Notes: a model not told the origin generated them from the letters alone. 64,000 nucleotides of DNA from Rhynchopus sp. YZ270_cl-10 (GCA_964035575.1 OZ037835.1:1116001-1180000); one strand, 5' to 3'; positions 13,680 to 64,000 are shown, counted from the stretch's first letter. Program-made: numbers and translations.

Positions 13680-13833
13680 TGCCACCTTCCGCCGCAAGCC
13701 CTCCACTGTGTCATCTGCACCCACTTCGACTGTGTGCTGATTCGTGTCGAAACCCTTGATGTTCCGGTCCATGTCTTTGTTTTGTGTTCTGATCTCTGTG
13801 TGTGGTGGGGTGTTGGTGGTGATCAGAGTGCGA
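13680..13833 (-). pseudogene. 5' fragment of a third UBL-LRR paralog
   Basis: Encodes MDRNIKGFDTNQHTVEVGADDTVEGLRRKVA plus upstream sequence matching ~3933-4094, then truncated. Confidence 0.85.
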
Positions 13834-24977: not shown

Positions 24978-27900
24978 CTAGAGTTTGCTCGGATCAGCAT
25001 CTTTCTCAATTGCATCCGACTTCGGCTTTGGCGATGATGAAGGAAACTCACACTTCGGGATCTCACGCTTCAGGATCTCGGCACGGATACATGCCATCAT
25101 CTGCACGAACCAGAGTCTGTTCTTAGGGCTCAGTAGGCTCACTCCGTAGTCCTCACCAGGTTTCAACGCATCCATCGGGACGTACTCGACCTGTCAAAAC
25201 AAAGAGGAAGTATAGGAAGTATACAATAAAAAAATAATATTCACGACAGAATTGAACTCTGTGAAGTAAGAATAAAAGCTTTTCTTAAGCGTTGAGGACA
25301 ACCTGCGTCTAAACCTTTTGATTCGTGAAGCACAAAGGCTTCGATCGACACGGCGACAGATCTCCACCCGTGGGGTAGAGTAATTTTGTTGATACGGGGG
25401 GGGGGGGGGGTAGGTGGGGGCAAAACCCCTATTTTTTTGAGGCATTTCGATTTTTTTGGATTTACGTGCAAAGTACCCGCAAACCACCGAAAATTTCGGG
25501 TCAGAGATGGTTTTGGGGTGTGGTTTGGGGGTGTTCTATAGGTGAGACACCCCAGAGATACAAAAAAATGGAAAAAAATAGCAAAAATAGACCATTTTGG
25601 CCGTTTGGGCCATTTTGGTCAAAATGGCCATTTTTGACCAATATTTCAAAAAAAAAAGCAAAAATTTGTCATCATTAGGCCTGTCTGGGCACAAATATGC
25701 CCCAAAAATGTCCCGCGAGTCCATTCCGACCTGTTTTGAACACATTTATCGCCTTTTTTGGTGTTTTTTTGGTGTTTTGAGGTCAAAAAAGATCCCCTGA
25801 CTATCCCCTGGCAGCCCTGGGCCGCGACTTGCGCCCTGCTTTTGGACCCCCTCTGGGCCAAAAAATGGGTGAAAACCCTCGAAAAAGCACTCCGGGGACC
25901 CAGATAGTTCCATATATCCACCAGAAACCCACCCAAACACCTCAAAAACATGCCAGAAAAATATTTTCAAAAACACACTTTTTTCAAAAAGTTCATCTGG
26001 GCAGGTTCCATAATGACTTATTTGAAAAAGTGTGTTTTTGAAAATGTTTTTCTGACATGTTTTTGAGGTGTTTTTGAGGGTGTGCGGTGGAAATTTGGAA
26101 CTATCTGGGCTCCCAGAGTGCTTTTTCGGAGGTTTTCGCCCATTTTTTGGCCCAGAGTGGGTCTAAAAGCAGGGCGCAAGTCGCGGCCCAGGGCTGCCAG
26201 GGGATAGTCAGGGGATCTTTTTTGACCTCAAAACACCAAAAAAACACCAAAACAAGTGCCTAAAGTGTCCAAAACAGGTCGGAATGGACTCACAGGACAT
26301 TTTTGGGGTAGTTTTGTGCCCAAGCAGCTGTCATGATGTCGAAATTTTGCTGTTTTTTTGATTTTTTTCTCAAAAAATGGCCATTTTACCCAACATGGCC
26401 AAAACCGTCAAAAGCCACTTTTTCACTATTTTTTTTGCATTTTTTCATATGGGTCGATTTCAAACCCCCCCCCCCCCCCCCCCAAAAGTTCTTTTTTGTC
26501 TTTTTCATGATATAGGCAGTTTTTTTGCAGTCTGAGGTCCGGAACCGCCCCAAAAACGATTTTCTGGGAGGTTTTGGGTGGTTTTGGGGCGAAATGGACC
26601 TTTTTTGACCATTTTTATGGTATTTTTAGGCTGTTTTTGGCCCTTCTTCTTACACAGCCTATTGGGGGTCAAAATAGCTATTTTTGACCAAAAAACACAA
26701 TTTATTTGACGCCAGGAGGCCTCCGTTGGCCCAAATATATCCCAAAAATGGGCTGTGAGCCCAATCCGACCTGTTTTGGGCACATTTGGCACTTTTCTTG
26801 GTGCTTATTTGATGTTTTTTGGTCAAAAATAGCTATTTTGACCCCCAATAGGCTGTGTAAGAAGAAGGGCCAAAAACAGCCTAAAAATACCATAAAAATG
26901 GTCAAAAAAGGTCCATTTCGCCCCAAAACCACCCAAAACCTCCCAGAAAATCGTTTTTGGGGCGGTTCCGGACCTCAGACTGCAAAAAAACTGCCTATAT
27001 CATGAAAAAGACAAAAAAGAACTTTTGGGGGGGGGGGGGGTTTTGAAATCGACCCATATTCTGAGGTGCCCTAATCATGGATTTTCGGGTCTCAGGGTGT
27101 TTCTGACCCATTTCTGGGGGGTATGAGGGGTGTTGACAGGTTTTTTGCTCACAAAACCACTTTTTCCAAAAATGCCTCACCCGTCCTGAAGGTTTTGCCC
27201 CCCCTAGGCATACTGTGCAGGCGAGCCGTTTTTAGGCGAGTTTTTCGTTTTCCTGATTTTCAGGAAAAACTCGCCAAAAACTCGCCCTACTCGCCCATTA
27301 CTCGCCTATTACTCGCCAAAACTCGCCAAAAACTCGCCAAAACTCGCCAAAAACTCGCCTAAACTCGCCTAAACTCGCCCACATTTGGGTGCAAATCCTG
27401 GTGCACATACGCACCTTGGGGGTGAAAATGTGCACCAGGATGTGAAAATGGAGGGCGGGGGTGACTGATGACAACATGCCACTCGAAAACACACAAAAAA
27501 ATTGAAAATGTGTCACTTGTACGTCTAACGGCAACCATGTCACGGCAGTGGCTGACAGGTATGTATGTAAACATTTGCTCCAGGGGAAGATCCAGGCGTG
27601 CCATAGATCCCGGGTGACAAGACGTGCTACAATCCGGAGGATGACGAAGACATGAGCCGGGGCTACACTCGCTATACAACAATGTCCTCGCCATGCCGGT
27701 AAATGGCAACCCTGCAGGCCACCCCTTGGCGGTATTCCCCACGACTACATCGCACCCATCTGTGCAAGCTTCATGGATCCGCAGAAGCTAACTGGTGGTA
27801 CTGGTTGTGGAAGCCTACAAAGCAAACTGTAGAGGTCTTGTTCAAGTGGAACGAAAAAAATTTTCTCTTCAAAACTCAAATTTCCCTCATATTTTCGTGT

Positions 27901-28941
27901 GTACATTTTTCCCAAGGTAAAATCCCTACCTAAAAAAAAAACTCGCCAAAACTCGCCCCCCAAAAATAGGCGAGTTTTAGGCGAGTTTTTGGCGAGTAGG
28001 CGAGTTTTTTTTACTCGCCCGCACAGTATGCCTAGGGGGGGGGGGGGGGGGGAAAGGCAAGTTGATACCTGCAGCTTGGTCTCTGGGATGACACCCTTCT
28101 CGCACACGTCCTCGATCTGCGCTGCGGTCATCTCCAGCTTGAAGAAGGCAACCATGTGGTCGATCAGGCGGACTGCGTACACCTCACATGGCTTATACTT
28201 TTTCGTCTTGTTCCGGTAGTGCGCTGAGATCATCTCCCCGATGATTTGAGCAGCAGAGCGCTCCAGCATCCCCTCAGTCACTTTCAGCTTGCCTGTTTTG
28301 TCCTTCGACAGTTTGTCCTCCCAGATGAACACAATTTGATCTGATGCTTCGCTGTGGCGTTTTGCCACGTAAACGTCAGCCTCGCTGTTGATCGGCATCC
28401 CGGCAAACTTGAAATCGATTGGTTGGCAGGTGATCGTGAACCCCTTGCTATTGAACCCACATAAGATTATCAGTTGCATGGCCAACACATCCGGGAACTT
28501 CTCCGAAGCTTCAGACACTACCCGGGTTTCAGGAATCGTGTGCTGACGGAGGACTTGCTGCAGCTTTACGAAGGTGTCGTCCACATAATCCTTGACCTGC
28601 CATAAACCTTCATGAGGCACACCCTTCAGGTCCAGCTTCCACTCTCCTTTGAAGATGTCGTCCCTTCTGGCAGGGCACTCGGCAAACACTCTCTCTGCCG
28701 GGAACAAGTCGATGGTATCGAGGTTGTCCTTGGGGAACCCGAGCCCAGTCTTAAATACCATGTCGCAAATGGGTTCTACCCAGTCAAGGTGCCACTTGCT
28801 AGTGGGGTGAAGTCCCTCCCCCTGCGGCTTCCTAAAGTGAGTCAGGTCGATGCTCTTCTGTGACAACACCGAGCTAACTGAGAACGACCGCACAACAGGT
28901 GATGATAACCTGATGATACGTGCGAATGGGTTCCGATGCAT
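24978..28941 (-). CDS. Two-exon PD-(D/E)xK (restriction-endonuclease-fold) protein with predicted mitochondrial presequence, 361 aa; exons 28941-28069 and 25190-24978
   Basis: ATG at 28941 (MHRNPFARIIRLSSPVVRSFSVSS). Phase-0 donor CAG|GTATC at 28068 and acceptor TTTTGACAG|GTC at 25191 give ...ETKLQ|VEYVPMDALK.... Motifs ADVYV, WEDK, AQIIGEMISA, VAFFK. Confidence 0.75.
25411..27206. mobile_element. Foldback-2 copy 2, in a poly-G tract inside the nuclease-gene intron
   Basis: Homologous to 9654-10842. G runs on both sides (25396-25410 and 28035-28052, the latter beyond MITE-1 copy 3). Confidence 0.85.
26451..27055. mobile_element. Foldback-4 (GGGTCGATTTCAAA termini, ~245-bp arms), TSD ATAT (or AT)
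   Basis: ATAT at 26447-26450 and 27056-27059. Empty site TTTCATATTCTGAGG is visible in foldback-2 copy 1 at ~10686-10700. Confidence 0.9.
27207..28032. mobile_element. MITE-1 copy 3
   Basis: Same TIRs; located in CCTAGG at the right end of foldback-2 copy 2. Confidence 0.9.
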
Positions 28942-28959
28942 TGTGTTTGTGTTGTAAAC

Positions 28960-29015
28960 CTGTAGTGGGTCTGTGTCATGTATAGGAGAGAGGTAGAGGA
29001 GGGTAGAGGAGAATT
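28960..29015 (-). promoter_or_regulatory. Polypyrimidine tract + AG acceptor 18 nt upstream of the ATG (candidate trans-splice or 5'UTR intron acceptor)
   Basis: Minus strand reads TTCTCCTCTACCCTCCTCTACCTCTCTCC...CCACTACAG|GTTTACAACACAAACACAATG. Confidence 0.5.
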
Positions 29016-29595
29016 TAAAAAAAAGAGGGGCTGGGAGGGGTTCGTTTGTTTGTACATGCCTAAGGCATTCCAAAAGGCAGACAGTGCACCTCTTCGCAAA
29101 GAAGGGATGTGAGCAGGCGGAAGCCTGGTCTGACAAAAAAAAAAGTTTATCGTTTGATAATCACCTTCGGATTCCCAACACATTTGCTTCTGCAACACAT
29201 CACAGTCATGATCTTGCTCCCAACACTGCCACTTGAGCTCACATCTCTAGTCTTCGTTGTTGCTGTTCTGTCAGACATGTCTTTTCTCTTATCGTCCTGG
29301 AAATACAATCTCGTCAAAGTTCCTTCGATACTTCAGTTCAGGGATAATTGGTTGGTTGTCGATCATGACAAAGTTGTACCTGGGCAGACCATCATGAACG
29401 GCCATGAGGGGAGAAGCTTTGAGTGTTGATCGTCTACAGCTGGCTTTGTCTTCTCAACATAATTGTGGATCATTTTCAATAAGAAAATGCAACTGAACAA
29501 CACATCAAGTCTCGAGAAACTCCTTCTTGATATTGGTAGACTGAAGGACTCCATAGCACACCAACGCTCTGATGCTCTAAATGAGCAAGGTGTCT

Positions 29596-30552
29596 ACGCA
29601 ACCAACGCAACGCAACCGATGCATACGTAGCGATCTGTATGCAACGAACGCGACGCAACCAACGCAACGCAACCGATGCATACGTAACGATCTGTATGCA
29701 ACGAACGCAACGCGTGCAACGCAACGCAACCGATGCATACGTAACGATCTGTATGCAACGAACGCAACGCATCCAACGCAACGCAACCGATGTATACGTT
29801 ACGATCTGTATGCAACGAACGCGACGCAACCAACGCAACGCAACCGATGCATACGTTACGATCTGTATGCAACGAACGCAACGCAACCGATGCATACGTA
29901 ACGATCTGTATGCAACGAACGCAACGCAACCGATGCATACGTAACGATCTGTATGCAACGAACGCAACGCATCCAACGCAACGCAACCGATGTATACGTT
30001 ACGATCTGTATGCAACGAACGCAACGCAACCGATGCATACGTAACGATCTGTATGCAACGAACGCAACGCAACCAATGCATACGTAACGATCTGTATGCA
30101 ACGAACGCAACGCAACCGATGCATACGTAACGATCTGTATGCAACGAACGCAACGCAACCGATGCATACGTAACGATCTGTATGCAACGAACGCAACGCA
30201 ACCGATGCATACGTAACGATCTGTATGCAACGAACGCAACGCAACCGATGCATACGTAACGATCTGTATGCAACGAACGCAACGCATCCAACGCAACGCA
30301 ACCGATGCATACGTAACGATCTGTATGCAACGAACGCAACGCGTGCAACGCAACGCAACCGATGCATACGTTACGATCTGTATGCAACGAACGCGACGCA
30401 ACCAACGCAACGCAACCGATGCATACGTAACGATCTGTATGCAACGAACGCAACGCGTGCAACGCAACGCAACCGATGCATACGTAACGATCTGTATGCA
30501 ACGAACGCAACGCAACCGATGCATACGTTACGATCTGTATGTAACGAACGCG
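29596..30552 (+). repeat. AACGC-rich minisatellite (43/58-bp variant units)
   Basis: Core GCAACGCAACCGATGCATACGTAACGATCTGTATGCAACGAAC; related to the family A/B central repeats. Confidence 0.95.
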
Positions 30553-34640: not shown

Positions 34641-36106
34641 TCCGGTTCGTTACGTTGCGTTCCGTTCGTTGCGTTCCGTTCGGTGCGTTCCGTTCGTTGC
34701 GTTCAGATCGCAACGTACAGATCGGTTCCGTTCGGTGCGTTCCGTTGGTTGCGTTCAGATCGTTGCGTTCAGATCGCAACGTACAGATCGGTTCCGTTCG
34801 GTGCGTTCCGTTGGTTGCGTTCCGTTCGTTGCGTTCCGTTCGTTGCGTTCCGTTCGTTGCGTTCAGATCGCAACGTACAGATCGGTTCCGTTCGGTGCGT
34901 TCAGATCGTTGCGTTCCGTTCGTTGCGTTCAGATCGCAACGTACAGATCGGTTCCGTTCGGTGCGTTCCGTTGGTTGCGTTCCGTTCGTTGCGTTCCGTT
35001 CGTTGCGTTCAGATCGCAACGTACAGATCGGTTCCGTTCTGTTCGTTGCGTTCCGTTCGGTGCGTTCCGTTCGTTGCGTTCAGGTCGTTGCGTTCAGATC
35101 GCAACGTACAGATCGGTACCGTTCTGTTCGTTCCGTTCGTTGCGTTCAGATCGCAACGTACAGATCGGCACCGTTCTGTTCGTTCCGTTCGTTGCGTTCC
35201 GTTCGGTGCGTTCCGTTCGTTGCGTTCAGATCGCAACGTACAGATCGGCACCGTTCTGTTCGTTCCGTTCGTTGCGTTCCGTTCGGTGCGTTCCGTTCGT
35301 TGCGTTCAGGTCGTTGCGTTCAGATCGCAACGTACAGATCGGTACCGTTCTGTTCGTTCCGTTCGTTGCGTTCAGATCGCAACGTACAGATCGGTAACGT
35401 TTACTTTCTCTTTGGGTCATAAGGTACGCCCTTCTCTGACCACGACATGAAACACAAAGCCAAAACAATTGATCACCGGAAAGGTCCTGTATGTCCGTTC
35501 GGTGCGTTCCGTTCGTTGCGTTCAGATCGCAACGTACAGATCGGTTCCGTTCGGTGCGTTCAGATCGTTCCGTTCCGTTCGGTGCGTTCAGATCGTTGCG
35601 TTCCGTTCGGTGCGTTCCGTTCGTTGCGTTCCGTTCGGTGCGTTCCGTTCGTTGCGTTCAGATCGCAACGTACAGATCGGTTCCGTTCCGTTCGTTCCGT
35701 TCGGTGCGTTCCGTTCGGTGCGTTCAGATCGTTGCGTTCCGTTCGGTGCGTTCCGTTCGGTGCGTTCAGATCGCAACGTACAGATCGGTTCCGTTCCGTT
35801 CGTTCCGTTCGGTTCGTTCCGTTCGTTGCGTTCCGTTCGTTGCGTTCAGATCGTTGCGTTCCGTTCGGTGCGTTCAGATCGCAACGTACAGATCGGTTCC
35901 GTTCCGTTCGTTCCGTTCGGTTCGTTCCGTTCGTTGCGTTCCGTTAGTTGCGTTCAGATCGCAACGTACAGATCGGTTCCGTTCCGTTCGTTCCGTTCGG
36001 TTCGTTCCGTTCGTTGCGTTCCGTTCGTTGCGTTCAGATCGCAACGTACAGATCGGTTCCGTTCGGTGCGTTCCGTTCGTTGCGTTCAGATCGCAACGTA
36101 CAGATT
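34640..36106 (+). repeat. CGTT-rich modular minisatellite (core GTTCAGATCGCAACGTACAGATCGGTTCC), continuing at 57769-58856 and 59970-62290
   Basis: Directly visible; same unit in all three blocks. Confidence 0.95.
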
Positions 36107-36585
36107 GGTCCTGAGTATGACCTTAAACTGCTAAGTCGTGAGCGAATGTATCCTAGTAGGTATGGGGAAAGGGGAAGGAGTTCTTTGACCGCCCGAAGGC
36201 TTTGGCTGGGAAGGTATGGGGGGACTTCAGAACCTTTCTTGACCGCCCGTGGATGCATTCTCAAGGATTGGACATGGACACCCCTCCGTAGCGCAACGTC
36301 CCGCTGACTTAGGGTGAGGCAATGTATTGTGGCCCCAAAGTCAGTGCAAAAAGACCCTAGGCTCACCTTTGGAAACTGCATGTGTCTACCTGGTGCATGT
36401 GGACAAACTTCTGGAGACGGGCAGGTTGACGGCGACTACTACGGTAGATCTTTCCAGAAACCGTTGATGCGGCCACCCGGACATGATGACACACAACACA
36501 CGTTTACTTTCTCTTTGGGTCATAAGGTACGCCCTTCTCTGACCACGACATGAAACACAAAGCCAAAACAATTGATCACCGGAAA

Positions 36586-36730
36586 GGGGTTTATACACAT
36601 TACACAACACCACGTGCCACCCTGTTTTTACTTATTTACTTTTTACCACCTCACCCCTTTTATACCTACCGCAGTCGCCTCCCCGTGGCAACCCTGGACG
36701 GTCAAGAAGAGTGACCGACTAAGAACTGCG
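36586..36730 (+). ncRNA. HDV-like self-cleaving ribozyme fold in the LINE 5'UTR
   Basis: P1 GGGGUU (36586-91)/AACCCU (36690-95); P2 CGCAGU/ACUGCG; P3 GCC/GGC; L3 UCCCCGU; P1.1 CC/GG; P4 CGGUCA/UGACCG; J4/2 ACUAAG with C36719; ~78-nt J1/2. Confidence 0.8.
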
Positions 36731-36909
36731 ATCAGGAGAAACAGGGTCTTCTAACATTACTTTATTTTTATTTTTATTTTAAGTGTAATACCTATTATAC
36801 TTTTGCCTGCTATTCGCTTTTGACCTGGTAAGTCTGCTTTTGTTTCCTTTCCCCCCTTCAACAACCTCCGCACGCCCACCTACCCTTTGCTAATCCCACC
36901 CCCCACAAC

Positions 36910-38439
36910 ATGACCTCACCGGATCACGCCATGGACGTAGATGCAGAGACGCAGCCGGCACCCTCCCTCACGCTCCGGAACCCGGCGGCAACGCCAGCAG
37001 CCGCGGCACGGCTAGCGGAAGCAGAAGGCTTCCTGCTGGAAGTGTCGCGGTCGGCGCATGACGCGCACGAGTGGGAGAAGAACGCAGACGAGAAGGCGAG
37101 GCAAGTCCTCTCGCAACACCGTATGTCAGTCTCCCCCCTCACCCTCAAAAGAAGAGAACCCTCCTCTCAACATATTTTTAAATTTTATTTTGAGGGAATC
37201 CCATCCCCCGAAGCCCCCATACTATCTTTCTCCGGTGTGAACGGGGTGTTCATACGCCCCGCCCGCACCAACTCAAATGACGGACTTACGTCGGTCATTT
37301 GGCCAGAAGCGTCCTACGACGAAACGCTGGAGCACTCGGAAAGAGTACAGGGGAGGGTGGTAATGGGTAGATTAGGGGATTTCGGGATCGTTGTCCCAAA
37401 AAAGGACGAAGTGAAGGCATGGGAAACAGTGGGAAAGGCGGAAAGGGCAGGGGAGGCAAGCTACAGGCTCACCGGCTTACCCACCACGTGCACACCCGAG
37501 GACCTAGTGTCGGCAATTTCCCAAACGGGACGCCACATCAGAGGGAGAAGCACTCGCAGGGAAACAGCACCCGGGGGCACACACACACACACACTCCTGG
37601 TCGCAATGCATGCACAACCACCACCCCCACCCTCCTTCACATTTGGGGAGCATGTGATCGTCTGCACACCAGCGATCCATGCAAAATTCCCCCCACACAA
37701 AAAAAACACGACCTCACAGACACAAAAAGGAGGAAAGGGGAGGGGGAGAGGAAAGGGCTACCAAAGCCCAGGAGCAAAGGGTCAGGGCGGGGGCAGGGGA
37801 GGAGCAAAGAGCGGGGAAGGGGGGAAGCAGGCACACAGTGCATCCCTCCCAATGGGAGTAGGGCTCGGCCAGAATGCAACGTCCCCCAAAACGGTGGGAG
37901 GCGATGGGAACGAGAACATGGGTGGAAAGGGAAGCGGGAAGGGGAACAAGGGAGGCAAGGGAAAGGGGAGCGTACCAGCGACCGGACCCTCAGTTTGGGA
38001 CGCGAGGTTTTCCGATTTGGAAAAGAGAGTGGAAGCTCTCTCTACAAATCAGGAAAACCTCGCGTCACAATTGAGGGTGGGCTTAGCCGAAGGCTTCGAA
38101 CAAATCAGCCAAGGGTTATCGCTAAGCCTAGAAAAGCTCCTCCCCAAGAGCACAAGACCCGGAAAGAAAGGCGGTGCAAAACTAAGTGTCGACACCAACA
38201 TCGGCACAGAAGACGACGAAGAAATGACAGAAGGCAAAACGCCTTCGTCAAAGACACCGCTACCGTCTGGATCCCCCAGGAAAACGCCCAAAGGGAAAAG
38301 GGCGAGGGTGGGAGAGGAGCACGCGCGGAACACGTCCGCCAAGACTGGGGACAGCTCCCCCACAGCCCGGACGATACCGGGGGGGATAACGGTGCGGTCG
38401 CCGCGGTCCAGCAACAAGGGGATCAAACTCGTCGTGTAG
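36910..38439 (+). CDS. LINE ORF1 (gag-like nucleic-acid chaperone by position), 509 aa
   Basis: Intact ORF upstream of ORF2 with G/K-rich region and coiled-coil-like segment (FSDLEKRVEALSTNQENLASQL). No CCHC knuckle seen. Confidence 0.8.
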   Translation: MTSPDHAMDVDAETQPAPSLTLRNPAATPAAAARLAEAEGFLLEVSRSAHDAHEWEKNADEKARQVLSQHRMSVSPLTLKRREPSSQHIFKFYFEGIPSPEAPILSFSGVNGVFIRPARTNSNDGLTSVIWPEASYDETLEHSERVQGRVVMGRLGDFGIVVPKKDEVKAWETVGKAERAGEASYRLTGLPTTCTPEDLVSAISQTGRHIRGRSTRRETAPGGTHTHTLLVAMHAQPPPPPSFTFGEHVIVCTPAIHAKFPPHKKNTTSQTQKGGKGRGRGKGYQSPGAKGQGGGRGGAKSGEGGKQAHSASLPMGVGLGQNATSPKTVGGDGNENMGGKGSGKGNKGGKGKGSVPATGPSVWDARFSDLEKRVEALSTNQENLASQLRVGLAEGFEQISQGLSLSLEKLLPKSTRPGKKGGAKLSVDTNIGTEDDEEMTEGKTPSSKTPLPSGSPRKTPKGKRARVGEEHARNTSAKTGDSSPTARTIPGGITVRSPRSSNKGIKLVV

Positions 38440-38834
38440 ACCATACCACCACCCCCCTCCCTATCTCTCCAACCCCACCCTCCCTAATCCAACCTCCTCC
38501 AACTACACACAAACTCATCCCCCTTACACCCCACAAAACAAAACATGTACCGGTACAGCAGCACCAACAACAACAACATCAGCAGCAACAACAGCAGAGG
38601 CACCTAATACGACAGCAACAACAACAACATCACCAGCAGCAACAACAGCAGCATCAACAGCAGTGGCCGCTTACACGACAACAACAACAGCAACATCACC
38701 AGCAGCATCAACAGCAGCAACGACAGCTACAACAACAACGGCAACAGCAACAACAACAACGACAACATCACCAGCAGCAGCAACAGCAACAGCACCAACA
38801 ACTGCACCAACAGCTGCAACCATCTGAGGGACGA

Positions 38835-38903
38835 CGCCACCTCCTACACCTGAGACGTCTACTTCTCCTGAGGTGCGGCGACGTAGAGCAGAACCCCGGA
38901 CCA
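38835..38903 (+). other. 2A-like ribosomal skipping (StopGo) peptide
   Basis: RHLLHLRRLLLLRCGDVEQNPG|P matches the DxExNPGP consensus and lies immediately before the APE domain. Confidence 0.9.
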
Positions 38904-41726
38904 GAGGAAGCCCTGAAGCTGATCAGCTTCAACTGCAACGGGCTGACCGAGCAACGGGAAGAGGAGCTGCAGGAGTTACTGAACTCGGAGCACTTCGATG
39001 TGGTGGCTCTGCAGGAGCTGAAGGAGGCGCAGACAGCACTGCCCGCGTTCCCGGGCTACACCCCCTTCCTCCGGAAGCGCACGCAACGCCGCACCCCCAA
39101 TGGCAGCCTGTACTCCGGAGGCGGCATAGCCACGCTGGTGCACACAAGCCACCAAGCCTCCCTCACCTGGGCCAGCGGGGAGCCAAGTGTGACGGAGCGT
39201 CTTGACGTGAGGGTGACGACGGAGCATCGGGAGTACACGGTGACGAACCTGTACCGACCTGGAGGTGTAGGCAGCAGCGCTGATGACCTGCGTGTGGACG
39301 ACTTCTCTGCAGATGACCTCCCCTCCGACGAAGACTCCATCATCCTCGGTGACTTCAACGTCCACCACCCTGCGTGGGACCTCCAAGCGAAGCCAGATGC
39401 CAAAGGGTCACAGCTACACCAGTGGTCGCTGCGCAACGCCATGCAGGTGCTCAACTGCCCCAACACAGTCACGCGCTTCTCCGGAACAGTCTTCTCCTCA
39501 CCGGACATCACCTTGGTACACAGGAACGTAGAAGCCACATGGACCACACTTTGCGCACGAGGCTCCGACCACCTCCCCATCCTAGTCACAGTGCAACCTC
39601 CGACGGAAGGGGAGGAAGTGAACGGAGGCGACGAAGACGCGACAGTGCCCGAACACCTGCTGAGATGGTGCTGGTCACGTGCGGATTGGGAGGCGTACAC
39701 GGCAGAGCTGGAGCGTTACGCCCCCAAGGCCCACAACTGGGGTGGTGTAGATGCGGTGAACAGGTTCACGGGATTGTGCAAAAACATCGCAGAAAAACAC
39801 ATCCCACTCTCCCACCACACCTCCACACCAAGGGTCAGGAAGTCGTGGTTCACTCCTCAGGTCCATGAATTGCTGCAAGAACGCAACGCAGTGACGGAAC
39901 TACTTCTCTCCGCGGACGAGACGGAACGCGACGTCCAAGCCGAAAAGCTGAAAGAGCTGAAGGTCGCCACCTCCTGTGCCATCATGGATGCGAAGCAGCA
40001 GGCATGGGTGCGTAGCTGCAACGCCGCCACACCACCACCTCTCAGCAGCACTTTCCGGAGGTTGAAGGAGCTCAGTGGTGACCGGGTGAAACCCATCACC
40101 AAAGCAGTCGCTACCCCGGAGGGCCCTCTGACGAACACACCGCAGGAAAAAGCGAACACCCTGGCCCGCTACTTCGCCGCAGTGAGTGGAGACGGCACGC
40201 CCCCTTCTCTCGCCAACCCGCAGCGTACTGCTAGGCGCAACAACACACAGAGCGCGGGCTACACCGGAGCGGCAAGCGAAGCTCCCTTCACCTTGCCGGA
40301 GCTCGATTACGCGATGAGCTCGCTGAAGCTGGGCAAAGCACCTGGGCTGGACGAGATGCACAACGAGCTCTTGCTGCATCTTGGGCCCAAAGGACGAGAC
40401 GCCTTACTCCACGTCCTCAACTTATCCTGGTGCAAAGGTGAACTCCCTACATCGTGGCTGCAGAGCAACATCGTGCCCATCGCTAAGAACGGGAAGGACG
40501 CCAGCATCCCCGCGTCGTACCGCCCCATCTCTCTTACGAGCAACGTCTGCAAACTCTTGGAGAAGATGGTCAAGTGCCGCATCACCCAGATGCAAGACAG
40601 TCCGGACCTGCCGCAGTACAGGGGCCCACACCGCACACAAGCAGGTTTCCGCCGTCGTCTCTCCACGATAGACCAGCTCGCGGCGCTCATGCAGCGGGTG
40701 AATGCGGGGAAGAACCGCCCCACCATCGCACTCTTCTTCGACGTAGAAAAGGCGTTCGACACTGTGTCTCGCAAGCGCATACTCCAGGCGCTGAAGCACA
40801 AGCAGCACCTGCCACCACGCTACCTCAACTGGATTGAAGCCTTCACCAGTGACCGCTCCGCCTGTGTTTCAGTGGATGGAGCAAAGAGTGCGCAGTACGT
40901 GATGAGAGCTGGAGTACCGCAGGGTACAGTACTGTCACCCCTCCTTTTCCTCGCTGCTATGGACGAAGTTGCGGAAGCGCTCGACGACCTCAGTGCAACA
41001 TATCCCACATTCTTCGCCGACGACATGGCAGTCACCGTGCAAGGGGAAACATTAGGGGAAGTGCAAGAATTGGCGCAAGCGGTCATCAACCGTGTCACAG
41101 CGGCGATGGAGCCACTCGGAATGCGCCTCTCCAGCACAAAGACCGTCTTCACCTTCTTCGGCACAAGAAACGTCCTCAACAAGTACCCGTTAGCGGCCGA
41201 CACAGAACTTTGGCTGAGGAACGGTATTCGGGTGCCCTACTCCGCCACACCCAAATACCTGGGATTGACGCTGGATCCGTCCTTGACGATGGAGGCACAC
41301 ACCACCGCAGTCATCACCAGGGTGCAAAAAAGGCTCGGTCTGATGAAGATGTTGTCTGGAACCACGTGGGGAGCTAACACACACACCCTCCGCACCACCT
41401 ATCTCACATACGTACTTCCCCTGATCCGCTATGCTCTTGGCATATACGGTCCACAGCTGTCAACACACCTGATGGACAAGCTGGAGGCCGAACACAACGC
41501 CGCGGCGCGTATCATCACCGGATGTCCTTTGCCTACGTCTCGCGCCAAATTGCTGTGGGAGGCACGCCTGACCCCGATAGTGGACCTGATGCGATTGGAC
41601 GCCGTAACTGCGTTCGAGTTGTTTCGGCGTCACACCGACACGCCAGGGAAAGCGGCCTGCGGCTACACCTCCGCCTCCCTCACGCTCAACAACTGGCTCT
41701 CCGCCGCCCAGCGACTCTCCTCCGAG

Positions 41727-42134
41727 CAGTGCTACCAACGCGACAAGTCGCGCGCGACTCGCGACAAACCACCCGCGACAGCGCGACAAAATGAGTTGTC
41801 GCAAAAATCGAAAATTTTTTTTTTCCATTTTGAGACACTTTTTTTTTTTTTTTTGTTAGGAAAAATCGCGTTTTTTCCGGGTACTTAGCAAAATTTTGGT
41901 CAAAAAATGATGGCTTTTGCTTACGTCGCTACTGTACCGTCTGCGATGGTTTTTTCTGGATTTTTTTTTTTGGATTTTTTTTTCCAAAATCGCCCACACC
42001 CAAAAAAAAAAATTTTTTTTTTTTTTGGTGAAAATTTTTGTGATGTCGAAAAAAAAAATTTTTTTTGGGCGCGACAGCGCGACAAGTGGCACTTTGTCGC
42101 GCGACTAGAATCTCTTGTCGCGTTGGTAGCACTG
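41727..42134. mobile_element. 408-bp MITE, 21-bp perfect TIR CAGTGCTACCAACGCGACAAG, 7-bp TSD CTCCGAG
   Basis: TSD at 41720-41726 and 42135-42141. Empty site present in the minus-strand LINE at ~52028. Confidence 0.93.
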
Positions 42135-43784
42135 CTCCGAGGCACACAAGGAGTTCCGCAGACCTGGGGTGCATATGGCAGATATGCAGCGTCACCTGCC
42201 TGTAGACCCGTGGTATTGGAGTGACGTACTGCCCCGCCTAAGTATCACCGCCACGATACCTGGGATACGCCGCTCCGACCCTGAGCCAGATGACGAAAAA
42301 TTCCTGCTCCTCACAGAGGAGGCCCTCCAACGCCTTCCCCCCTGCGAATGGCACGCCTACACCGACGGCTCTGTCCAGGGCAAAAGCGGGGGTGCTGGGG
42401 TAGTGCTGTACAAGCTCCCCGAGATGCGAGAACCCAACTGCTCCTTCTCCTACGGGGCCGGCACCGGCGCAAGCAGCTTTCAAGCCGAAATGATCGCCAT
42501 AGGCCACTCCATTGACCTTCTCTTTGACAAAGCAACCCCTGGGGCCACCTGCGCCATCCTCACAGACTCGCAATCGTCCCTGCGTGCGCTAGAGAGCGGT
42601 CCCAAGAAGGCCAGAGAGGACTTCGAACACAAACTCTGGAAAGGACTACACCGGCTTGCCGGCAACAACATAAACCTAATACTGCACTACGTCCCCTCGC
42701 ATGTGCAGGTCCTGGGCAATGATGCTGCTGACGCTGCGGCCGCAGAAGGCACCAAGATGGTGCAGAGCCCTGGCCTGTCCTTCTCTGCCGCCAGATCATG
42801 TGCGAGACGTCACCTGGCGAACACCCCTTCCGTCGAGCAGCCCGGCACGAACACGGTGTACGCCAGGAAGGCCGGAGCGGACGTAGCGGTGCTGCAACCT
42901 CCCGTCCACTGCACGGACCTCACCCGCAGGGGGGAAACCACCATCCGCAGCCTCCGAGCTGGCAGCAACCAGCTAACGTTCGACTTCCGCACCTCGTCGA
43001 ACACTGCCACATGCCTGCGATGCGACAAGCCCTGCACCCTGAAGCACCTGTTCTTCTCCTGCCGACAAACGTGTAGCGAAAGCCTCCCGGACCTCCATAC
43101 CCTCCTCATGCGAGAGCCGGCGACCGCCCTGAAGTACCTCGTCAGCGAGAGTTTCCTGCCTGGCCCGCTTGAGGAGTACCTCCGTAACGGTAGTTAGTCG
43201 TGACTGAGTTGTTGTTGATTAATATTATTATGTTCTGTGTTTAATCTTGTGTCATAGGCTGCAGTACGACTTACGTCGCGCTGCTAGCCCCTGACAACAA
43301 GCGTGTTATTCATGTCCCCCTATTTACAACGGGTATTTTGTTGCTTTTCTGCTGTCTTTCCCCACATGTTACCCAATCAAAAGCCTTTCGTTCGCTCATT
43401 CAGCGTTCCCCCTACCCATTTTTCCACATCTCTACCACACTTCTCACACCGTAGAAATCCCTGATGCATAATTCTCTCTCGCTATTGAAGCCCCAGGTCC
43501 CTCCGCACTCGAAGTACGCCCAGAGAGGCGTACTCCACATTTTACCCAGCGGACGCTTCTTTATGCACCTAGTTATCCCCTTTTTATGCCGCCACTCCCT
43601 ACACTCTCTGTACCACAGCACAATGTATTTACCGCTCTTTTGGAGGTCAACAGTCGTTAAACACAAGTAGATTAGGAGCATCTGACTGTACATTAATCAA
43701 TTAAAGCAAACTATACATGTGCGGACGGAGGTGTACCACACATCTACCCTACGAATGCTCTTCCCGTGCCCCAATTCCCCCCTA

Positions 43785-45712
43785 TTTAGTTTTTTTTGGC
43801 AATCCTTAACACTCCTGGCTGGTGTGGTTGATAAACGCAACCGAACACAACGAAACGGATCCGCTCTATACGTTACGATCCGTATGCAACCAAAGCATGC
43901 AACGCAACGCAACCTATGTGTACGTAACGATCAGAACGCAACGAACGCAACGTAACGGATGCAACACAACCAACGCAACCTATGCGTACGTTGCGATCTG
44001 TTTATATCGATCTCAACATAACGAACACAACGCATGCAACGCAACGCAACCGATGTGTACGTAACGATCAGAACGCAACGAACGTAACGAAACGAACACA
44101 ACCAACGCAACGGATGCAACGCAACCTGTGTGTACGTTGCGTTCTGTATGCAACGCGTGCAACACAACGCAACCTATGCGTACGTTGCGATCTGTACATA
44201 TCGATCTCTACACAACGAACGCAACGCATGCAACGCAACGCAACCGATGTGTACGTAACGATCGGAACGCGTTTTCTGCCACGACAACCCCCAGACTCAG
44301 CCCCTGCCCGTGGCCCGATGTAGTACCCTAAGCACACCCGATTGCGGCACAGGCAAATGCGACGACAAGGGGAGGAGGGGTGGGGAGAGCGATGGGTACC
44401 TGAAGTGGAAGTTGCGCCTCTGCTGGGTGTCCGAGTCTCATAGGTAATAACACGAGCCACATGCCCCAAAAGTACGCCACCAACACCCCAACAAGGGCAA
44501 ATCGTGTACGCCGCCACAACACAAACCTACCTAAGAGATCAGGGCTCCTGGTGGGGGTTTGCGACTGCCACAGATGCCTGCCTCTCACTCTGCCCGCCCC
44601 CTCGCCCCTAAAGACACACAAACACACCAGTCACTGCATTTTGTTGATGTTAAAATCGATTGCGCCCTGGGTGCTATCTTGGGATATGAAAGGGGGAAAG
44701 CGTGTGATGGGGGCGAGCTGTGTGTACCCTATTTGCTGCCTTACGTTTCACTTTCCACACCGCCCCATATAAATACACACTAGTTATACTTACACAATGC
44801 ATATTCCCTTTTATTTTTTTTTTTTTTGAGTGACTTTTAAGCGTATACCTTTGGCTAAGCACGCCACGACACCGCTTACATTACTGCGCGCACCACTCCA
44901 TTTGTATTTTCCAGTTTTAGGGGAGGTATCCTCGCGTACGAGTTGTTTGACTCCAAAGTGATTCCCCGGCCTCTCAAGCAAGCAGGAGACCAACGTCAGG
45001 GGAGGTGTAATGAGATACCCTGGGCCGTGCCCACCTTTTGTGTTCTGTTCATTTTGTTTGAGTGGTGCGCCCACCTTGCTTTTTGTTCATTGTGTACTAA
45101 CCTATCGCAATAAAAAGACCACTAAAGGCCAAAGAGAAAAAAAAAAAAAAAACGCAACGAACGTAACCAACCGAACACAACCAACGCAACGCAACCGCTC
45201 CGTACGTTGCGCTCTGTACGTAACCATCTCTACACAACGAACGCAACGTATGCAACACAACGTAACCGGTGTGCTCGTAGCGATGTGTACGCAACGTAGC
45301 GAAGGCAACGCAACCAACGCAACGAGTGGTTACAAACCCCCACGCATGGTTCTCACACCGCTCTGGCACGTTTCCCAAGCCGCAAACCCGGTTGCCTGCC
45401 TGAAAAACCGGGTTTTTGGCCAAAACGGCTGTTTTGCCTGTAGAACCCTGTAGAAGCCTTAAGAAACACGTGTAAAAAAGGGGTACTCGCGACACCCTGG
45501 TTTCAGGGTCTGTCAGGGTTTGGAGGTCTTTGCTTCAGAGAAAGTCTCCTAAAAACCTCCTATCTTCCCAAGAATCCACTTTTTTGACCTCTTTGGACGT
45601 TTAGGGACCTGAAAAAAAATGGCCGAAACCCACCCTGGGGGGGGGGTGCCTTAGGGTGGGTGGGTGGGGTGGTGAAGCAACCTTAAAGACCTTAACACCG
45701 AGTGTTAAGGAA
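43785..45712 (-). mobile_element. Family A element in the LINE 3'UTR, itself containing a LINE 3' stub
   Basis: Same termini as 31267-32007, reversed. Empty site CCTA|TTTAATAC confirmed by ~50349-50362. Confidence 0.85.
44272..45152 (+). mobile_element. 5'-truncated LINE copy (~0.88 kb)
   Basis: Ends AATAAAAAGACCACTAAAGGCCAAAGAG(A)n. Short TSD AACGC; empty site at ~59400. Confidence 0.88.
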
Positions 45713-58108: not shown

Positions 58109-58856
58109 TTCCGTTCGGTGCGTTCCGTTCGTTGCGTTCCGTTCGGTGCGTTCCGTTCGTTGCGTTCAGATCGCAACGTACAGATCGGTTCCGTTCGGTG
58201 CGTTCAGATCGTTGCGTTCCGTTCGGTGCGTTCAGATCGTTGCGTTCCGTTCGGAGCGTTCCGTTCGTTGCGTTCAGATCGCAACGTACAGATCGGTTCC
58301 GTTCGGTGCGTTCCGTTCGTTGCGTTCCGTTCGGTGCGTTCCGTTCGTTGCGTTCAGATCGCAACGTACAGATCGGTTCCGTTCGGTGCGTTCAGATCGT
58401 TGCGTTCCGTTCGGTGCGTTCAGATCGTTGCGTTCCGTTCGGAGCGTTCCGTTCGTTGCGTTCCGTTCGGTGCGTTCCGTTCGTTGCGTTCAGATCGCAA
58501 CGTACAGATCGGTTCCGTTCGGTGCGTTCAGATCGTTGCGTTCCGTTCGGTGCGTTCCGTTCGTTGCGTTCAGATCGCAACGTACAGATCGGTTCCGTTC
58601 GGTGCGTTCAGATCGTTGCGTTCCGTTCGGTGCGTTCCGTTCGTTGCGTTCCGTTCGGTGCGTTCCGTTCGTTGCGTTCAGATCGCAACGTACAGATCGG
58701 TTCCGTTCGGTGCGTTCAGATCGTTGCGTTCCGTTCGGTGCGTTCCGTTCGTTGCGTTCAGATCGCAACGTACAGATCGGTTCCGTTCCGTTCGTTCCGT
58801 TCGGTTCGTTCCGTTCGGTGCGTTCCGTTCGTTGCGTTCAGATCGCAACGTACAGA

Positions 58857-59969
58857 TTAGTTTTTTTTGGCAATCCTTAACACTCACTGGCTGGTGTGGT
58901 TGATAAACGCAACCGAACACAACGAAACGGATCCGCTCTATACGTTACGATCCGTATGCAACCAACGCATGCAACGCAACGCAACCGATGTGTACGTTAC
59001 GATCTGTATGCAACGAACGCAACGCATGCAACGCAACGCAACCGATGTGTACGTAACGATCAGAACGCAACGAACGTAACGCATCCAACGCAACGCATGC
59101 AACGCAACGCAACCGATGCGTACGTAGCGATCTGTATGCAACGAACGCAACGCATGCAACGCAACGCAACCGATGTGTACGTAACGATCAGAACGCAACG
59201 AACGTAACGCATCCAACGCAACGCATGCAACGCAACGCAACCGATGCGTACGTAGCGATCTGTATGCAACGAACGCAACGCATCCAACGCAACGCATGCA
59301 ACGCAACGCAACCGATGTGTACGTAGCGATCTGTATGCAACGAACGCAACGTAACGGATGCAACGCATGCAACGCAACGCAACCGATGTGTACGTAGCGA
59401 TCGGAACGCAACGAACGTAACCAACCAAACACAACCAACGCAACGCAACCGCTCCGTACGTTGCGCTCTGTACGTAACGATAGCTACACAACGAACGCAA
59501 CGCATGCAACACAACGTAACCGGCGTGTACGTAGCGATGTCTACGCAACGAAGTCAACGCAACCAACGCAACGAGTGGTTACAAACCCCCACGCATGGTT
59601 CTCACACCGCTCTGGCACGTTTCCCAAGCCGCAAACCCGGTTACCTGCCTGAAAAACCGGGTTTTTGGCCAAAACGCCTGTTTTGCCTGTAGAACCCTGT
59701 AGAACCCTTAAGAAACACGTGTAAAAAAGGGGTACTCGCGACACCCTGGTTTCAGGGTCTGTCAGGGTTTGGAGGTCTTTGCTTCAGAGAAAGTCTCCTA
59801 AAAACCTCCTATCTTCCCAAGAATCCACTTTTTTGACCTCTTTGGACGTTTAGAGACCTGAAAAAAAATGGCCGAAACCCACCCCTGGGGGTGGGGAGGG
59901 TGGGTGGGTGGGTGGGTGGGTGGGAGGTGATCAGCAACCTTAAAGACCTTAACACCGAGTGTTAAGGAA
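58857..59969 (-). mobile_element. Family A element with expanded central repeats
   Basis: Same termini; empty site CAGA|TTGGTTCC occurs elsewhere in the minisatellite. Confidence 0.85.
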
Positions 59970-62290: not shown

Positions 62291-64000
62291 GGTCCTGAGT
62301 ATGACCTTAAACTGCTAAGTCGTGAGCGAATGTATCCTAGTAGGTATGGGGAAAGGGGAAGGAGTTCTTTGACCGCCCGAAGGCTTTGGCTGGGAAGGTA
62401 TGGGGGGACTTCAGAACCTTTCTTGACCGCCCGTGGATGCATTCTCAAGGATTGGACATGGACACCCCTCCGTAGCGCAACGTCCCGCTGACTTAGGGTG
62501 AGGCAATGTATTGTGGCCCCAAAGTCAGTGCAAAAAGACCCTAGGCTCACCTTTGGAAACTGCATGTGTCTACCTGGTGCATGTGGACAAACTTCTGGAG
62601 ACGGGCAGGTTGACGGCGACTACTACGGTAGATCTTTCCAGAAACCGTTGATGCGGCCACCCGGACATGATGACACACAACACACGTTTACTTTCTCTTT
62701 GGGTCATAAGGTACGCCCTTCTCTGACCACGACATGAAACACAAAGCCAAAACAATTGATCACCGGAAAGGGGTTTATACACATTACACAACACCACGTG
62801 CCACCCTGTTTTTACTTATTTACTTTTTACCACCTCACCCCTTTTATACCTACCGCAGTCGCCTCCCCGTGGCAACCCTGGACGGTCAAGAAGAGTGACC
62901 GACTAAGAACTGCGATCAGGAGAAACAGGGTCTTCTAACATTACTTTATTTTTATTTTTATTTTTATTTTTATTTTAAGTGTAATACCTATTATACTTTT
63001 GCCTGCTATTCGCTTTTGACCTGGTAAGTCTGCTTTTGTTTCCTTTCCCCCCTTCAACAACCTCCGCACGCCCACCTACCCTTTGCTAATCCCACCCCCC
63101 ACAACATGACCTCACCGGATCACGCCATGGACGTAGATGCAGAGACGCAGCCGGCACCCTCCCTCACGCTCCGGAACCCGGCGGCAACGCCAGCAGCCGC
63201 GGCACGGCTAGCGGAAGCAGAAGGCTTCCTGCTGGAAGTGTCGCGGTCGGCGCATGACGCGCACGAGTGGGAGAAGAACGCAGACGAGAAGGCGAGGCAA
63301 GTCCTCTCGCAACACCGTATGTCAGTCTCCCCCCTCACCCTCAAAAGAAGAGAACCCTCCTCTCAACATATTTTTAAATTTTATTTTGAGGGAATCCCAT
63401 CCCCCGAAGCCCCCATACTATCTTTCTCCGGTGTGAACGGGGTGTTCATACGCCCCGCCCGCACCAACTCAAATGACGGACTTACGTCGGTCATTTGGCC
63501 AGAAGCGTCCTACGACGAAACGCTGGAGCACTCGGAAAGAGTACAGGGGAGGGTGGTAATGGGTAGATTAGGGGATTTCGGGATCGTTGTCCCAAAAAAG
63601 GACGAAGTGAAGGCATGGGAAACAGTGGGAAAGGCGGAAAGGGCAGGGGAGGCAAGCTACAGGCTCACCGGCTTACCCACCACGTGCACACCCGAGGACC
63701 TAGTGTCGGCAATTTCCCAAACGGGACGCCACATCAGAGGGAGAAGCACTCGCAGGGAAACAGCACCCGGGGGCACACACACACACACACTCCTGGTCGC
63801 AATGCATGCACAACCACCACCCCCACCCTCCTTCACATTTGGGGAGCATGTGATCGTCTGCACACCAGCGATCCATGCAAAATTCCCCCCACACAAAAAA
63901 AACACGACCTCACAGACACAAAAAGGAGGAAAGGGGAGGGGGAGAGGAAAGGGCTACCAAAGCCCAGGAGCAAAGGGTCAGGGCGGGGGCAGGGGAGGAG
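62291..64000 (+). mobile_element. Third LINE copy, 5' end (ribozyme fold 62770-62914; ORF1 from 63106, runs off the window)
   Basis: Appears identical to 36107-37804 except for a 12-nt longer TTTTTA repeat. Confidence 0.93.

What the first reader, a model, noticed from the sequence alone, without database searches (positions are those of the whole stretch)
37419..38903. ORF2 has no local AUG: 340-codon -1 overlap with ORF1, then polyQ, then a 2A peptide that would release the enzyme
Seen: the ORF2 frame is stop-free from 37419 and overlaps ORF1 in the -1 frame. There is no Met between 37419 and the APE domain. A ~90-residue Q/H tract (38556-38819) precedes GDVEQNPG|P, and an in-frame A_AAA_AAC slippery heptamer lies at 37701-37707. 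Known: 2A peptides precede APE in L1Tc and several other non-LTR clades, but L1Tc/ingi lack a separate ORF1. Inference: frameshifting or non-AUG initiation plus StopGo would give ORF2p a fixed N-terminus and a separate polyQ-bearing product.
Basis: partly seen in the sequence, partly recalled or inferred. Interest (0 to 1): 0.7.

Follow-up and report, generated by a model that had tools for sequence, protein, structure and literature searches.

The report
LINE with kilobase dual-coded gene overlap
This is a very young jumping gene (LINE retrotransposon) whose enzyme reading frame has no start codon nearby but stays open for about 1 kb underneath the upstream gene; ribosomes likely enter there, and a 2A peptide is predicted to shed the leader and release the enzyme.

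Summary
The anatomy is real, with one correction: position 37419 is itself an in-frame AUG. The element is a young, multi-copy APE–RT–RNase H non-LTR retrotransposon with a genuine RRM-type ORF1. The ORF2 frame is open from 37371, 356 codons under ORF1 (P = 0.0004–0.011 across five nulls), through an 88-codon Q/H tract and a canonical Leu-rich 2A motif. The next in-frame Met lies inside APE. Independent assemblies carry the same frames.

The A_AAA_AAC heptamer is in frame and sits just after the RRM, but it has no downstream stimulator and arises by chance 13–30% of the time.

Best reading: ribosomes enter the ORF2 frame early in the overlap (about 65%), most likely at AUG 37419 (38%) or by -1 slippage (28%), and 2A gives ORF2p a fixed N-terminus. 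No RNA, ribosome data or diverged DNA relatives were available, so the mechanism is inferred. Every part has precedent; the combination and the overlap length were not found in ten literature searches.

The parts
36107..36585 (+). 479-bp upstream repeat unit attached to the element in copies A and C; probably a separate mobile unit or promoter module
   Evidence: About twice the contig depth of the LINE body in X2 and X3 and self-joins 36585->36107; a 3' fragment at 35397-35484; its 3' end reads into RNase H sequence in protein P0134
36586..36730 (+). HDV-like self-cleaving ribozyme fold; predicted 5' end of the element RNA (activity untested)
   Evidence: P1, P2, P3, L3, GG, P4 and C-containing J4/2 all present; the descriptor finds only this site and its twin in copy C (62770-62914) in 64 kb, and 0 of 200 shuffles (descriptor written after seeing the site). 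No ATG in 36586-36909
36828..36938 (+). GTAAGT donor-like motif followed by a 106-nt AG-free, 70% pyrimidine leader before and over the ORF1 start
36910..38439 (+). ORF1, 509 aa: conserved N-terminal domain, RRM-like domain, G/K-rich linker, coiled-coil-like segment, basic tail
   Evidence: Homologues P0157 and P0163 families match the ORF1 frame and not the ORF2 frame of the overlap; no Pfam hit
37216..37367 (+). Multibranch RNA structure ending at the point where the ORF2 frame opens; candidate internal entry element
   Evidence: -75.8 kcal/mol, z -5.4 against dinucleotide shuffles, z -4.3 against synonymous-codon shuffles
37371..38439 (+). 356-codon stop-free overlap of the ORF2 frame (-1) under ORF1
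37419..37421 (+). Only in-frame AUG of ORF2 upstream of APE (G at -3, G at +4)
   Evidence: arises from the Ala-Trp pair invariant in ORF1 homologues, chance 0.49
37395..37404 (+). In-register weaker slippery heptamers C_CCA_AAA and A_AAA_AAG, 8-9 codons after the frame opens
37441..37698 (+). RRM-like domain of ORF1p (residues 178-263), wholly inside the overlap
   Evidence: Low-confidence model (mean pLDDT 51); the 50 rows listed are dominated by RRMs, best Z 7.7, rmsd 3.2 over 73 residues; no Foldseek hit at E <= 0.001
37701..37707 (+). In-register A_AAA_AAC heptamer within an A8 run, directly after the RRM
   Evidence: no stimulatory fold 3' of it (z -0.96; z +1.4)
37986..38078 (+). 93-nt RNA hairpin inside the dual-coded region
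   Evidence: -59.3 kcal/mol, z -11.6; z -4.9 against codon shuffles
38440..38556 (+). Unstructured, AG-free, C/A-rich spacer after the ORF1 stop, ending in a CAG acceptor-like site (38556-38558)
   Evidence: resembles leaders of host genes in the window
38545..38607 (+). Out-of-frame AUG (ORF1 frame, A at -3) opening a 20-codon uORF
   Evidence: no indel here in the contigs laid
38556..38819 (+). 88-codon Q/H tract in the ORF2 frame, with 66-nt internal repeats
38832..38903 (+). 2A-like peptide ending GDVEQNPG|P, with 6 Leu at positions -19 to -10
   Evidence: compared with criteria in PMC3708506 and PMC13405545
38922..39572 (+). APE endonuclease domain
   Evidence: PF03372 E 1.8e-13, PF14529 E 4.6e-14
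40485..41273 (+). Reverse transcriptase domain
   Evidence: PF00078 E 9.4e-30
41727..42134 (.). 408-bp MITE-like insertion with terminal inverted repeats and a 7-bp target duplication; interrupts ORF2 in this copy
   Evidence: absent from copy B
42355..42753 (+). RNase H domain
   Evidence: PF00075 E 6.6e-9
43012..43062 (+). C-terminal CX2CX7HX4C zinc-knuckle-like motif; ORF2 stop at 43195-43197
   Evidence: read from sequence
43198..43787 (+). 3' UTR; no poly(A) tail
50353..56864 (-). Copy B: 5'-truncated at the equivalent of 37946, a 1.05-kb poly(A) SINE inserted in the Q tract, uninterrupted 2A-APE-RT-RNase H frame
   Evidence: 100% identical over 659 and 3129 nt
62291..64000 (+). Copy C: 5' part including unit, ribozyme, ORF1 start, AUG and heptamer equivalents; runs off the window
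   Evidence: identical to copy A apart from a 12-nt microsatellite indel

Best explanation
This is a young APE–RT–RNase H LINE whose ORF2 frame is open for 356 codons under ORF1; a few ribosomes likely start at the in-frame AUG at 37419, read a basic, polyQ-ended leader of 494 aa, and the 2A peptide is predicted to release a 1293-aa enzyme beginning at Pro. Shown: frames, AUG, motifs, domains, copies. Inferred steps: (1) the HDV-like ribozyme cuts the RNA at 36586, making AUG 36910 the first AUG, for abundant ORF1p (about 80%); (2) entry into the ORF2 frame happens in the first third of the overlap, 37371-37707 (about 65%), most likely at AUG 37419, reached internally or by leakage, possibly helped by the structure at 37216-37367; (3) 2A skips and/or throttles output (about 80%), so the leader's sequence and the exact entry point do not matter to the enzyme. 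The leader is probably disposable rather than a functional protein.
For: Open overlap beyond chance, P 0.0004-0.011, spread over both halves (P 0.025 and 0.016). The frame has 5 stops in the 153 codons upstream and none after a point 16 codons before the AUG. Chance of the observed upstream openness is about 0.58 for entry at 37419, 0.16 for 37701, 0.025 for 37959 and 0.0004 for the spacer. The AUG has purine -3 and G +4. A z -5.4 structure ends 50 nt upstream. Ribozyme fold with no ATG between it and ORF1; HDV-like ribozymes of R2 and L1Tc are proposed to support cap-independent initiation (PMC6765202 passages); an IRES upstream of mouse L1 ORF2 is reported (PMC3592465 passages). The 2A motif is canonical and Leu-rich like active peptides. 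A diverged database protein, P0158, reads stop-free through the ORF2 frame of the overlap (match to 38148-38262, P 0.001).
Against: The AUG comes from an Ala-Trp pair invariant in ORF1 homologues and would occur by chance 49% of the time. Seven AUGs precede it on the cleaved RNA, two in strong context. It is base-paired in the local predicted fold, and its purine-rich context differs from the C/A-rich host leaders. Strong structure occurs at several ORF1 sites (9 of 36 windows), so the upstream domain is not specific to the AUG, and structure lowers the stop-avoidance significance to 0.011. The 494-aa leader has no Pfam hit and no match but the 2A among the 162 proteins then held. P0158 itself switches from the ORF2 frame to the ORF1 frame, so its ORF2 path is broken, and 58 open codons are weak evidence. 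The family is nearly invariant, so the overlap is effectively one sequence. Single low-depth contigs in X2 show indels at 38378 and 38451.
Confidence: 0.38

Rival explanations
1. Low-level -1 ribosomal frameshifting from ORF1, mainly at A_AAA_AAC 37701 (or at C_CCA_AAA / A_AAA_AAG 37395-37404), gives ORF1(1-266)-leader-polyQ-2A, then free ORF2p.
For: A_AAA_AAC is among the shiftiest eukaryotic heptamers (PMC5009743 passage), is in register, lies in an A8 run and directly after the RRM. No special initiation is needed, and little ORF2p may suffice. TRE5-A and TRE3-A are described as needing a -1 shift (PMC5911963 passage). The frame downstream of 37701 is open beyond chance (P 0.003).
Against: No stimulatory structure 3' of any heptamer; the strong hairpin lies 279 nt downstream of 37707 and 20 nt from G_GGA_AAG. 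A strong heptamer occurs by chance in 30% of permutations, and the Lys-Lys is conserved in homologues. Leaves 110 extra open codons to chance (0.16).
Confidence: 0.28
2. The overlap is a by-product of U-poor, structured ORF1 RNA; ORF2 starts after the ORF1 stop by AUG-independent reinitiation, at near-cognate CUGs at the end of the Q tract (38802, 38814), or on a spliced or trans-spliced RNA using the CAG at 38556-38558.
For: Unstructured, AG-free, pyrimidine-rich spacer ending in CAG in phase with ORF2, a GTAAGT at 36828, and in-frame CUGs that would keep the whole 2A. AUG-independent ORF2 initiation is proposed for mammalian L1 (PMC5009743, PMC5972666 passages). The strictest null gives only P 0.011. 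Spliced-leader trans-splicing is shared by euglenozoans (PMC10161547 passage), if the host is one.
Against: Leaves a 356-codon open frame unexplained. AUG 38545 would intercept scanning ribosomes out of frame. No 36827->38559 joint among contigs of X1, X4, X6, X8, and no leader-like loose end among those shown (28 not shown; run types unknown).
Confidence: 0.2
3. AUG 38545 is the ancestral ORF2 start, put out of frame by a recent indel; these copies are mobilised in trans by a rare intact master.
For: AUG 38545 has a host-like C/A-rich context matching that of ORF1 and lies 119 codons before the 2A proline, near the 40-80 aa typical of 2A-bearing ORF2s (PMC3708506 passage) once the 66-nt duplications are discounted. 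The nearest relative with an N-terminus, the P0004 family, has a local Met.
Against: No indel at 38545-38559 in any of the 7 runs laid (contigs drop rare variants). ORF2 is uninterrupted in copy B and in P0125 (5 contigs). The open overlap would be coincidence.
Confidence: 0.1

Closest known systems
L1Tc / ingi (INGI clade of trypanosomatids)
   Same: APE-RT-RNase H, 2A immediately before APE, HDV-like ribozyme at the 5' end (PMC12278014, PMC6765202, PMC3708506 passages)
   Different: Has a separate 509-aa RRM-type ORF1 and a 356-codon overlap; ribozyme spans 145 nt with a long J1/2, not 77 nt; no poly(A) tail and no clear target duplication; 2A lies 495 codons from the AUG, not 40-80
CR1-26_BF, CR1-53_BF, CR1-1_LG (rare elements with both ORF1 and a 2A in ORF2)
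   Same: ORF1 plus 2A upstream of APE (PMC3708506, PMC3894237). Locus L001 has a similar layout: an upstream ORF, a spacer, then 2A-APE
   Different: CR1 clade; no long overlap reported in the passages read; this element has RNase H, a ribozyme and a polyQ tract
Dictyostelium TRE5-A / TRE3-A and NLTR-A / NLTR-B
   Same: Overlapping ORF1/ORF2 with a proposed -1 frameshift; NLTR-A has APE-RT-RH; the NLTR-B RT lacks a start codon (PMC5911963 passage)
   Different: The one overlap quoted is 13 bp, against 1069 nt here; no 2A described
Mammalian L1 and SART1 ORF2 translation
   Same: Bicistronic RNA with unconventional ORF2 initiation: AUG-independent reinitiation, IRES, or stop-start coupling
   Different: Their ORF2 AUG is at or within about 60 nt of the ORF1 stop; no 2A
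Unnamed ENA families P0003 (42%) and P0004 (36%); Diplonema papillatum P0013/P0156 (29%)
   Same: Closest ORF2 relatives found; APE-RT-RNase H
   Different: P0004 family has its own Met 40-50 aa before APE and no 2A; P0156 is one long ORF without 2A; the P0003 gene call starts inside APE and is uninformative

Membership tests
APE-type non-LTR retrotransposon with RNase H (I group) | APE, RT and RNase H in one ORF | tested here: met
   Pfam hits; continuous frame in copy B
APE-type non-LTR retrotransposon with RNase H (I group) | Dispersed copies with 5' truncation and a common 3' end | tested here: met
   Copies A, B, C; B truncated at the equivalent of 37946 with the same 3' end; 19 proteins in the ORF2 cluster
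INGI clade (L1Tc/ingi) | Single ORF, no ORF1 | tested here: not met
   Separate 509-aa ORF1 with stand-alone homologues
INGI clade (L1Tc/ingi) | 2A peptide N-terminal to APE | tested here: met
   GDVEQNPG|P at 38877-38903; activity untested
INGI clade (L1Tc/ingi) | HDV-like ribozyme at the 5' end | tested here: met
   Fold at 36586-36730, 0 of 200 shuffles; no Rfam hit; cleavage untested
INGI clade (L1Tc/ingi) | 77-nt Pr77 sequence hallmark | not testable with these tools
   No reference sequence was returned by any tool
INGI clade (L1Tc/ingi) | Poly(A) tail and target-site duplication | tested here: not met
   Copies A and B end without poly(A); no clear duplication against the empty-site look-alike at 58850-58875
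INGI clade (L1Tc/ingi) | RT phylogeny groups with ingi/L1Tc | tested here: inconclusive
   118-row FastTree has no labelled ingi reference and leaves the element unresolved among RNase H-bearing rows
Canonical programmed -1 frameshift cassette | In-register X_XXY_YYZ heptamer | tested here: met
   37701-37707, also 37395
Canonical programmed -1 frameshift cassette | Stimulatory stem or pseudoknot 5-9 nt downstream | tested here: not met
   Only 4-bp stems; z -0.96 and +1.4; pseudoknots were not modelled with a dedicated program
Active 2A (StopGo) peptides | Core GD(V/I)ExNPGP motif with a hydrophobic, Leu-rich helix at -19 to -10 | tested here: met
   6 Leu in -19..-10, including -13 and -14, the pattern linked to skipping and reduced output (PMC13405545 section 13)
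Active 2A (StopGo) peptides | Measured ribosome skipping | not testable with these tools
   Needs a reporter; several motif-conforming CR1 peptides were inactive (PMC3708506 section 7)

The most novel reading that the evidence does not exclude
An entry-agnostic funnel: a ribozyme-capped LINE keeps a kilobase of ORF1 open in the -1 frame so that any rare entry (internal AUG 37419 or -1 slips at several A-rich sites) flows through a polyQ spacer to a 2A that trims every product to the same enzyme N-terminus. This would be a triple-coded region (ORF1 protein, ORF2 leader, RNA structure) and a direct explanation of why LINEs acquire 2A peptides.
Probability: 0.3. Interest if true: 0.75.

Novelty: new variant of a known kind. 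Interest (0 to 1): 0.52.

Why it matters
How LINE ORF2 is translated, and why some LINEs carry 2A peptides, are open questions (PMC3894237). The published view ties 2A to loss of ORF1. This element has ORF1, 2A and an HDV-like ribozyme together, is nearly invariant and so probably recently active, and offers three point-mutable candidate entry sites. It is a clean test of whether 2A serves to make ORF2p independent of where translation starts.

Tried and rejected
No whole genome is held, so other copies were seen only as database proteins and contigs. No RNA holder listed; run types are unknown. No ORF1-ORF2 fusion among 7996 candidates of 411-2000 aa (weak evidence). P0156's N-terminus did not match the ORF1 profile (probability 0.1). 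Atlas hits for ORF1 were under 0.9. Rfam found nothing at gathering thresholds and only chance hits by E-value. Assembly error rejected. The 93-nt hairpin was rejected as a canonical frameshift stimulator because no heptamer lies 5-9 nt upstream. Lack of stops in the Q tract is not significant by shuffling (P 0.41); all 23 one-step variants of CAA/CAG fall at codon positions 2-3, only suggestive given internal duplication. The first fold (3 sequences, pLDDT 40) was not used. The quick ML tree did not finish. Three primary papers (HDV-ribozyme initiation, L1 ORF2 initiation, SART1) were not held and are cited only through reviews. Earlier findings of this scan: none in 3 look-ups.

Full report
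1. Observation. The + strand carries ORF1 (ATG 36910 to TAG 38439, 509 aa) and a second frame, -1 to it, open from 37371 to 41888. Position 37419, where the finding starts, is an in-frame ATG; the next in-frame Met is at 39441, inside APE. The Q/H tract is 88 codons (Q60, H13), GDVEQNPG|P spans 38877-38903, and A_AAA_AAC at 37701 is in the right register. So the description holds, except that the overlap is 356 codons and ORF2 does have a remote AUG.

2. Is the overlap more than chance? At 73 sites where a synonymous T in ORF1 would make an ORF2-frame stop, none has T. Synonymous permutations give P = 4e-4 and 6e-4 (20,000 each). Context-aware rates from the single-coding parts of the element give 7.15 expected stops, P = 4e-4. 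Stratifying by next base and predicted pairing gives 6e-4 or, using the overlap alone as reference, 0.011. The -1 frame is stop-poor elsewhere too (14 stops in 935 ORF2 codons, longest run 174), and the family is effectively one sequence, so the signal is real but moderate. It is spread over both halves (P 0.025 and 0.016); 37371-37700 alone gives 0.16. The heptamer is not remarkable: 0.125 at that site, 0.30 for any strong heptamer; the ATG has chance 0.49. The frames are not an assembly error: contigs from X1 (37148-38594) and X2 (37235-38361) have 2 substitutions and no gaps; one substitution, at 38324, changes ORF1 and is silent in the ORF2 frame. Eight runs from 5 studies hold the stretch, one possibly the source; 7 were laid. 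Three single low-depth contigs in X2 show indels (37205, 38378, 38451).

3. What it is. Pfam gives APE, RT and RNase H, with a C-terminal CCHC-like motif read from the sequence. The window has three near-identical copies: A (interrupted by a 408-bp MITE before RNase H), B (minus strand, 5'-truncated, SINE in the Q tract, uninterrupted enzyme frame) and C (5' part). ORF1 is a real gene: two families of stand-alone 354-600 aa homologues match its frame and not the ORF2 frame, and a low-confidence model of residues 178-263 matches RRMs (best Z 7.7). The ORF2-frame leader has no Pfam hit and looks overprinted. One database protein, P0158, matches the ORF2 frame at 38148-38262 (P = 0.001) and then the ORF1 tail at 61%: a diverged, probably decayed, relative whose -1 frame was open for at least 58 codons, which is weak support. 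The closest ORF2 relatives are unnamed (42%, 36%); the best named is Diplonema papillatum (29%). Of 121 proteins scanned, 18 carry an NPGP motif, all within 135 residues of their N-terminus; the 36% family has a local Met and no 2A. The RT tree does not resolve the clade. The host was not identified; a euglenozoan is a guess from that named hit.

4. (a) An HDV-like ribozyme fold at 36586-36730, found only there and in copy C, in 0 of 200 shuffles (descriptor written after seeing the site, consensus recalled). Its predicted cut site falls exactly where a separate 479-bp repeat unit ends, and no ATG lies between it and ORF1. (b) RNA structure confined to ORF1: 9 of 36 windows at z < -3, against 0 of 104 in ORF2, RNase H and the 3' UTR, including a multibranch domain 37216-37367 (z -5.4) and a 93-nt hairpin 37986-38078 (z -11.6), both surviving codon shuffles. 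Nothing folds 3' of A_AAA_AAC. (c) An unstructured, AG-free spacer with an out-of-frame AUG at 38545 in a host-like context, opening a 20-codon uORF, and an in-phase CAG at 38556-38558.

5. Mechanism. Shown: everything in sections 1-4. Inferred: ribozyme cleavage yields an RNA whose first AUG is that of ORF1; a minority of ribosomes enter the ORF2 frame early in the overlap; the 2A, canonical and with 6 Leu at -19 to -10, skips or throttles, giving a 1293-aa enzyme starting at Pro and a 494-aa, pI 11.6 leader if AUG 37419 is used. Weighing where the frame opens, the chance rates of the AUG and heptamer, and the missing stimulator, I put internal AUG 37419 at 0.38, -1 slippage at 0.28, downstream AUG-independent or spliced initiation at 0.20, and a broken AUG 38545 rescued in trans at 0.10. 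These weights are my judgement. The first two are not exclusive, since 2A makes all entries equivalent.

6. Comparison with what is known. It works like L1Tc/ingi (ribozyme, 2A, APE-RT-RNase H) but is not filed as INGI: it has an ORF1 and no poly(A) tail, and the tree is inconclusive. 2A with ORF1 is known in a few CR1 elements; -1 or +1 shifts are proposed for Dictyostelium TREs and Paramecium LINEs; AUG-independent or IRES-type ORF2 starts are proposed for L1. Papers seen: PMC3894237 parts 1-2 of 3; PMC3708506 passages and section 7; PMC13405545 abstract, passages, sections 13-14; passages only of PMC5009743, PMC10161547, PMC6765202, PMC5972666, PMC5405496, PMC12278014, PMC5911963, PMC3592465. 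No supplements were read. Ten searches listed no non-LTR element combining ORF1, a kilobase overlap, polyQ, 2A and a ribozyme; subscription papers and Repbase were not searchable, so this is not proof of absence.

7. Verdict. A real and unusual layout made of known parts: a new variant of a known kind. Interest 0.52. The route into ORF2 is undecided but can be settled with point mutants in one reporter.

Noticed in passing
window 36107-36585; fragment 35397-35484; copy at 62291 onward: A 479-bp repeat unit sits directly upstream of the ribozyme, has about twice the element's depth in two runs, joins to itself in tandem, and occurs inside the RNase H region of another copy (P0134). Unit and LINE together fill one empty-site look-alike (58850-58875). 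Role unknown.
   Followed up: partly
window 55157-56206 (-), 48381-49425 (-), 44272-45152, 57103-57767, 46645-47027: A 1.05-kb poly(A)-tailed SINE-like element, at least five 98-100% identical full or partial copies; one is inserted in copy B's Q tract with a 6-bp target duplication.
   Followed up: partly
window 41727-42134: 408-bp MITE-like insertion with CAGTG-starting terminal inverted repeats and a 7-bp target duplication; similar insertions interrupt other copies of the family (P0002, P0130, P0135, P0138; contig end at 36498 in X5).
   Followed up: partly
window 56875 (-): The flank of 5'-truncated copy B supplies an ATG in frame with the ORF2 overlap frame (228 codons to the SINE); probably chance.
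   Followed up: no
window 37978-38014: A 37-nt piece of the long hairpin's 5' arm matches another contig in runs X2, X3 and X5 with different flanks; possibly a related family or chance.
   Followed up: no
window 2337-3149, 3513-4337, 5521-6543, 13662-14432 (-): A family of ubiquitin-like plus leucine-rich-repeat genes and fragments, with C/A-rich leaders.
   Followed up: partly
window 15308-17145: A near-perfect (AAAAC)n array of 367 copies.
   Followed up: no
window 29600-30550, 34650-36090, 43900-44260, 57780-62290: Satellite built from CGTTC/CAGAT-type short units; LINE copies A and C are inserted at the same position at its edge and may be a segmental duplicate.
   Followed up: partly
window 27745-29160 (-): A 398-codon host ORF without Pfam match, with a likely intron donor near codon 364.
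   Followed up: no
proteins P0163-P0168: A second family with a homologous ORF1 occurs on contigs of the same lengths as this family's, so probably in the same genome; its ORF1 is about 100 aa longer at the N-terminus and its ORF2 was not identified.
   Followed up: partly
L001 988-2853; L003-L006, L008-L010: L001 is a distant element with an upstream ORF and 2A-APE; several other metagenome contigs carry short 2A-ending exons or ORFs beside non-retroelement genes.
   Followed up: no
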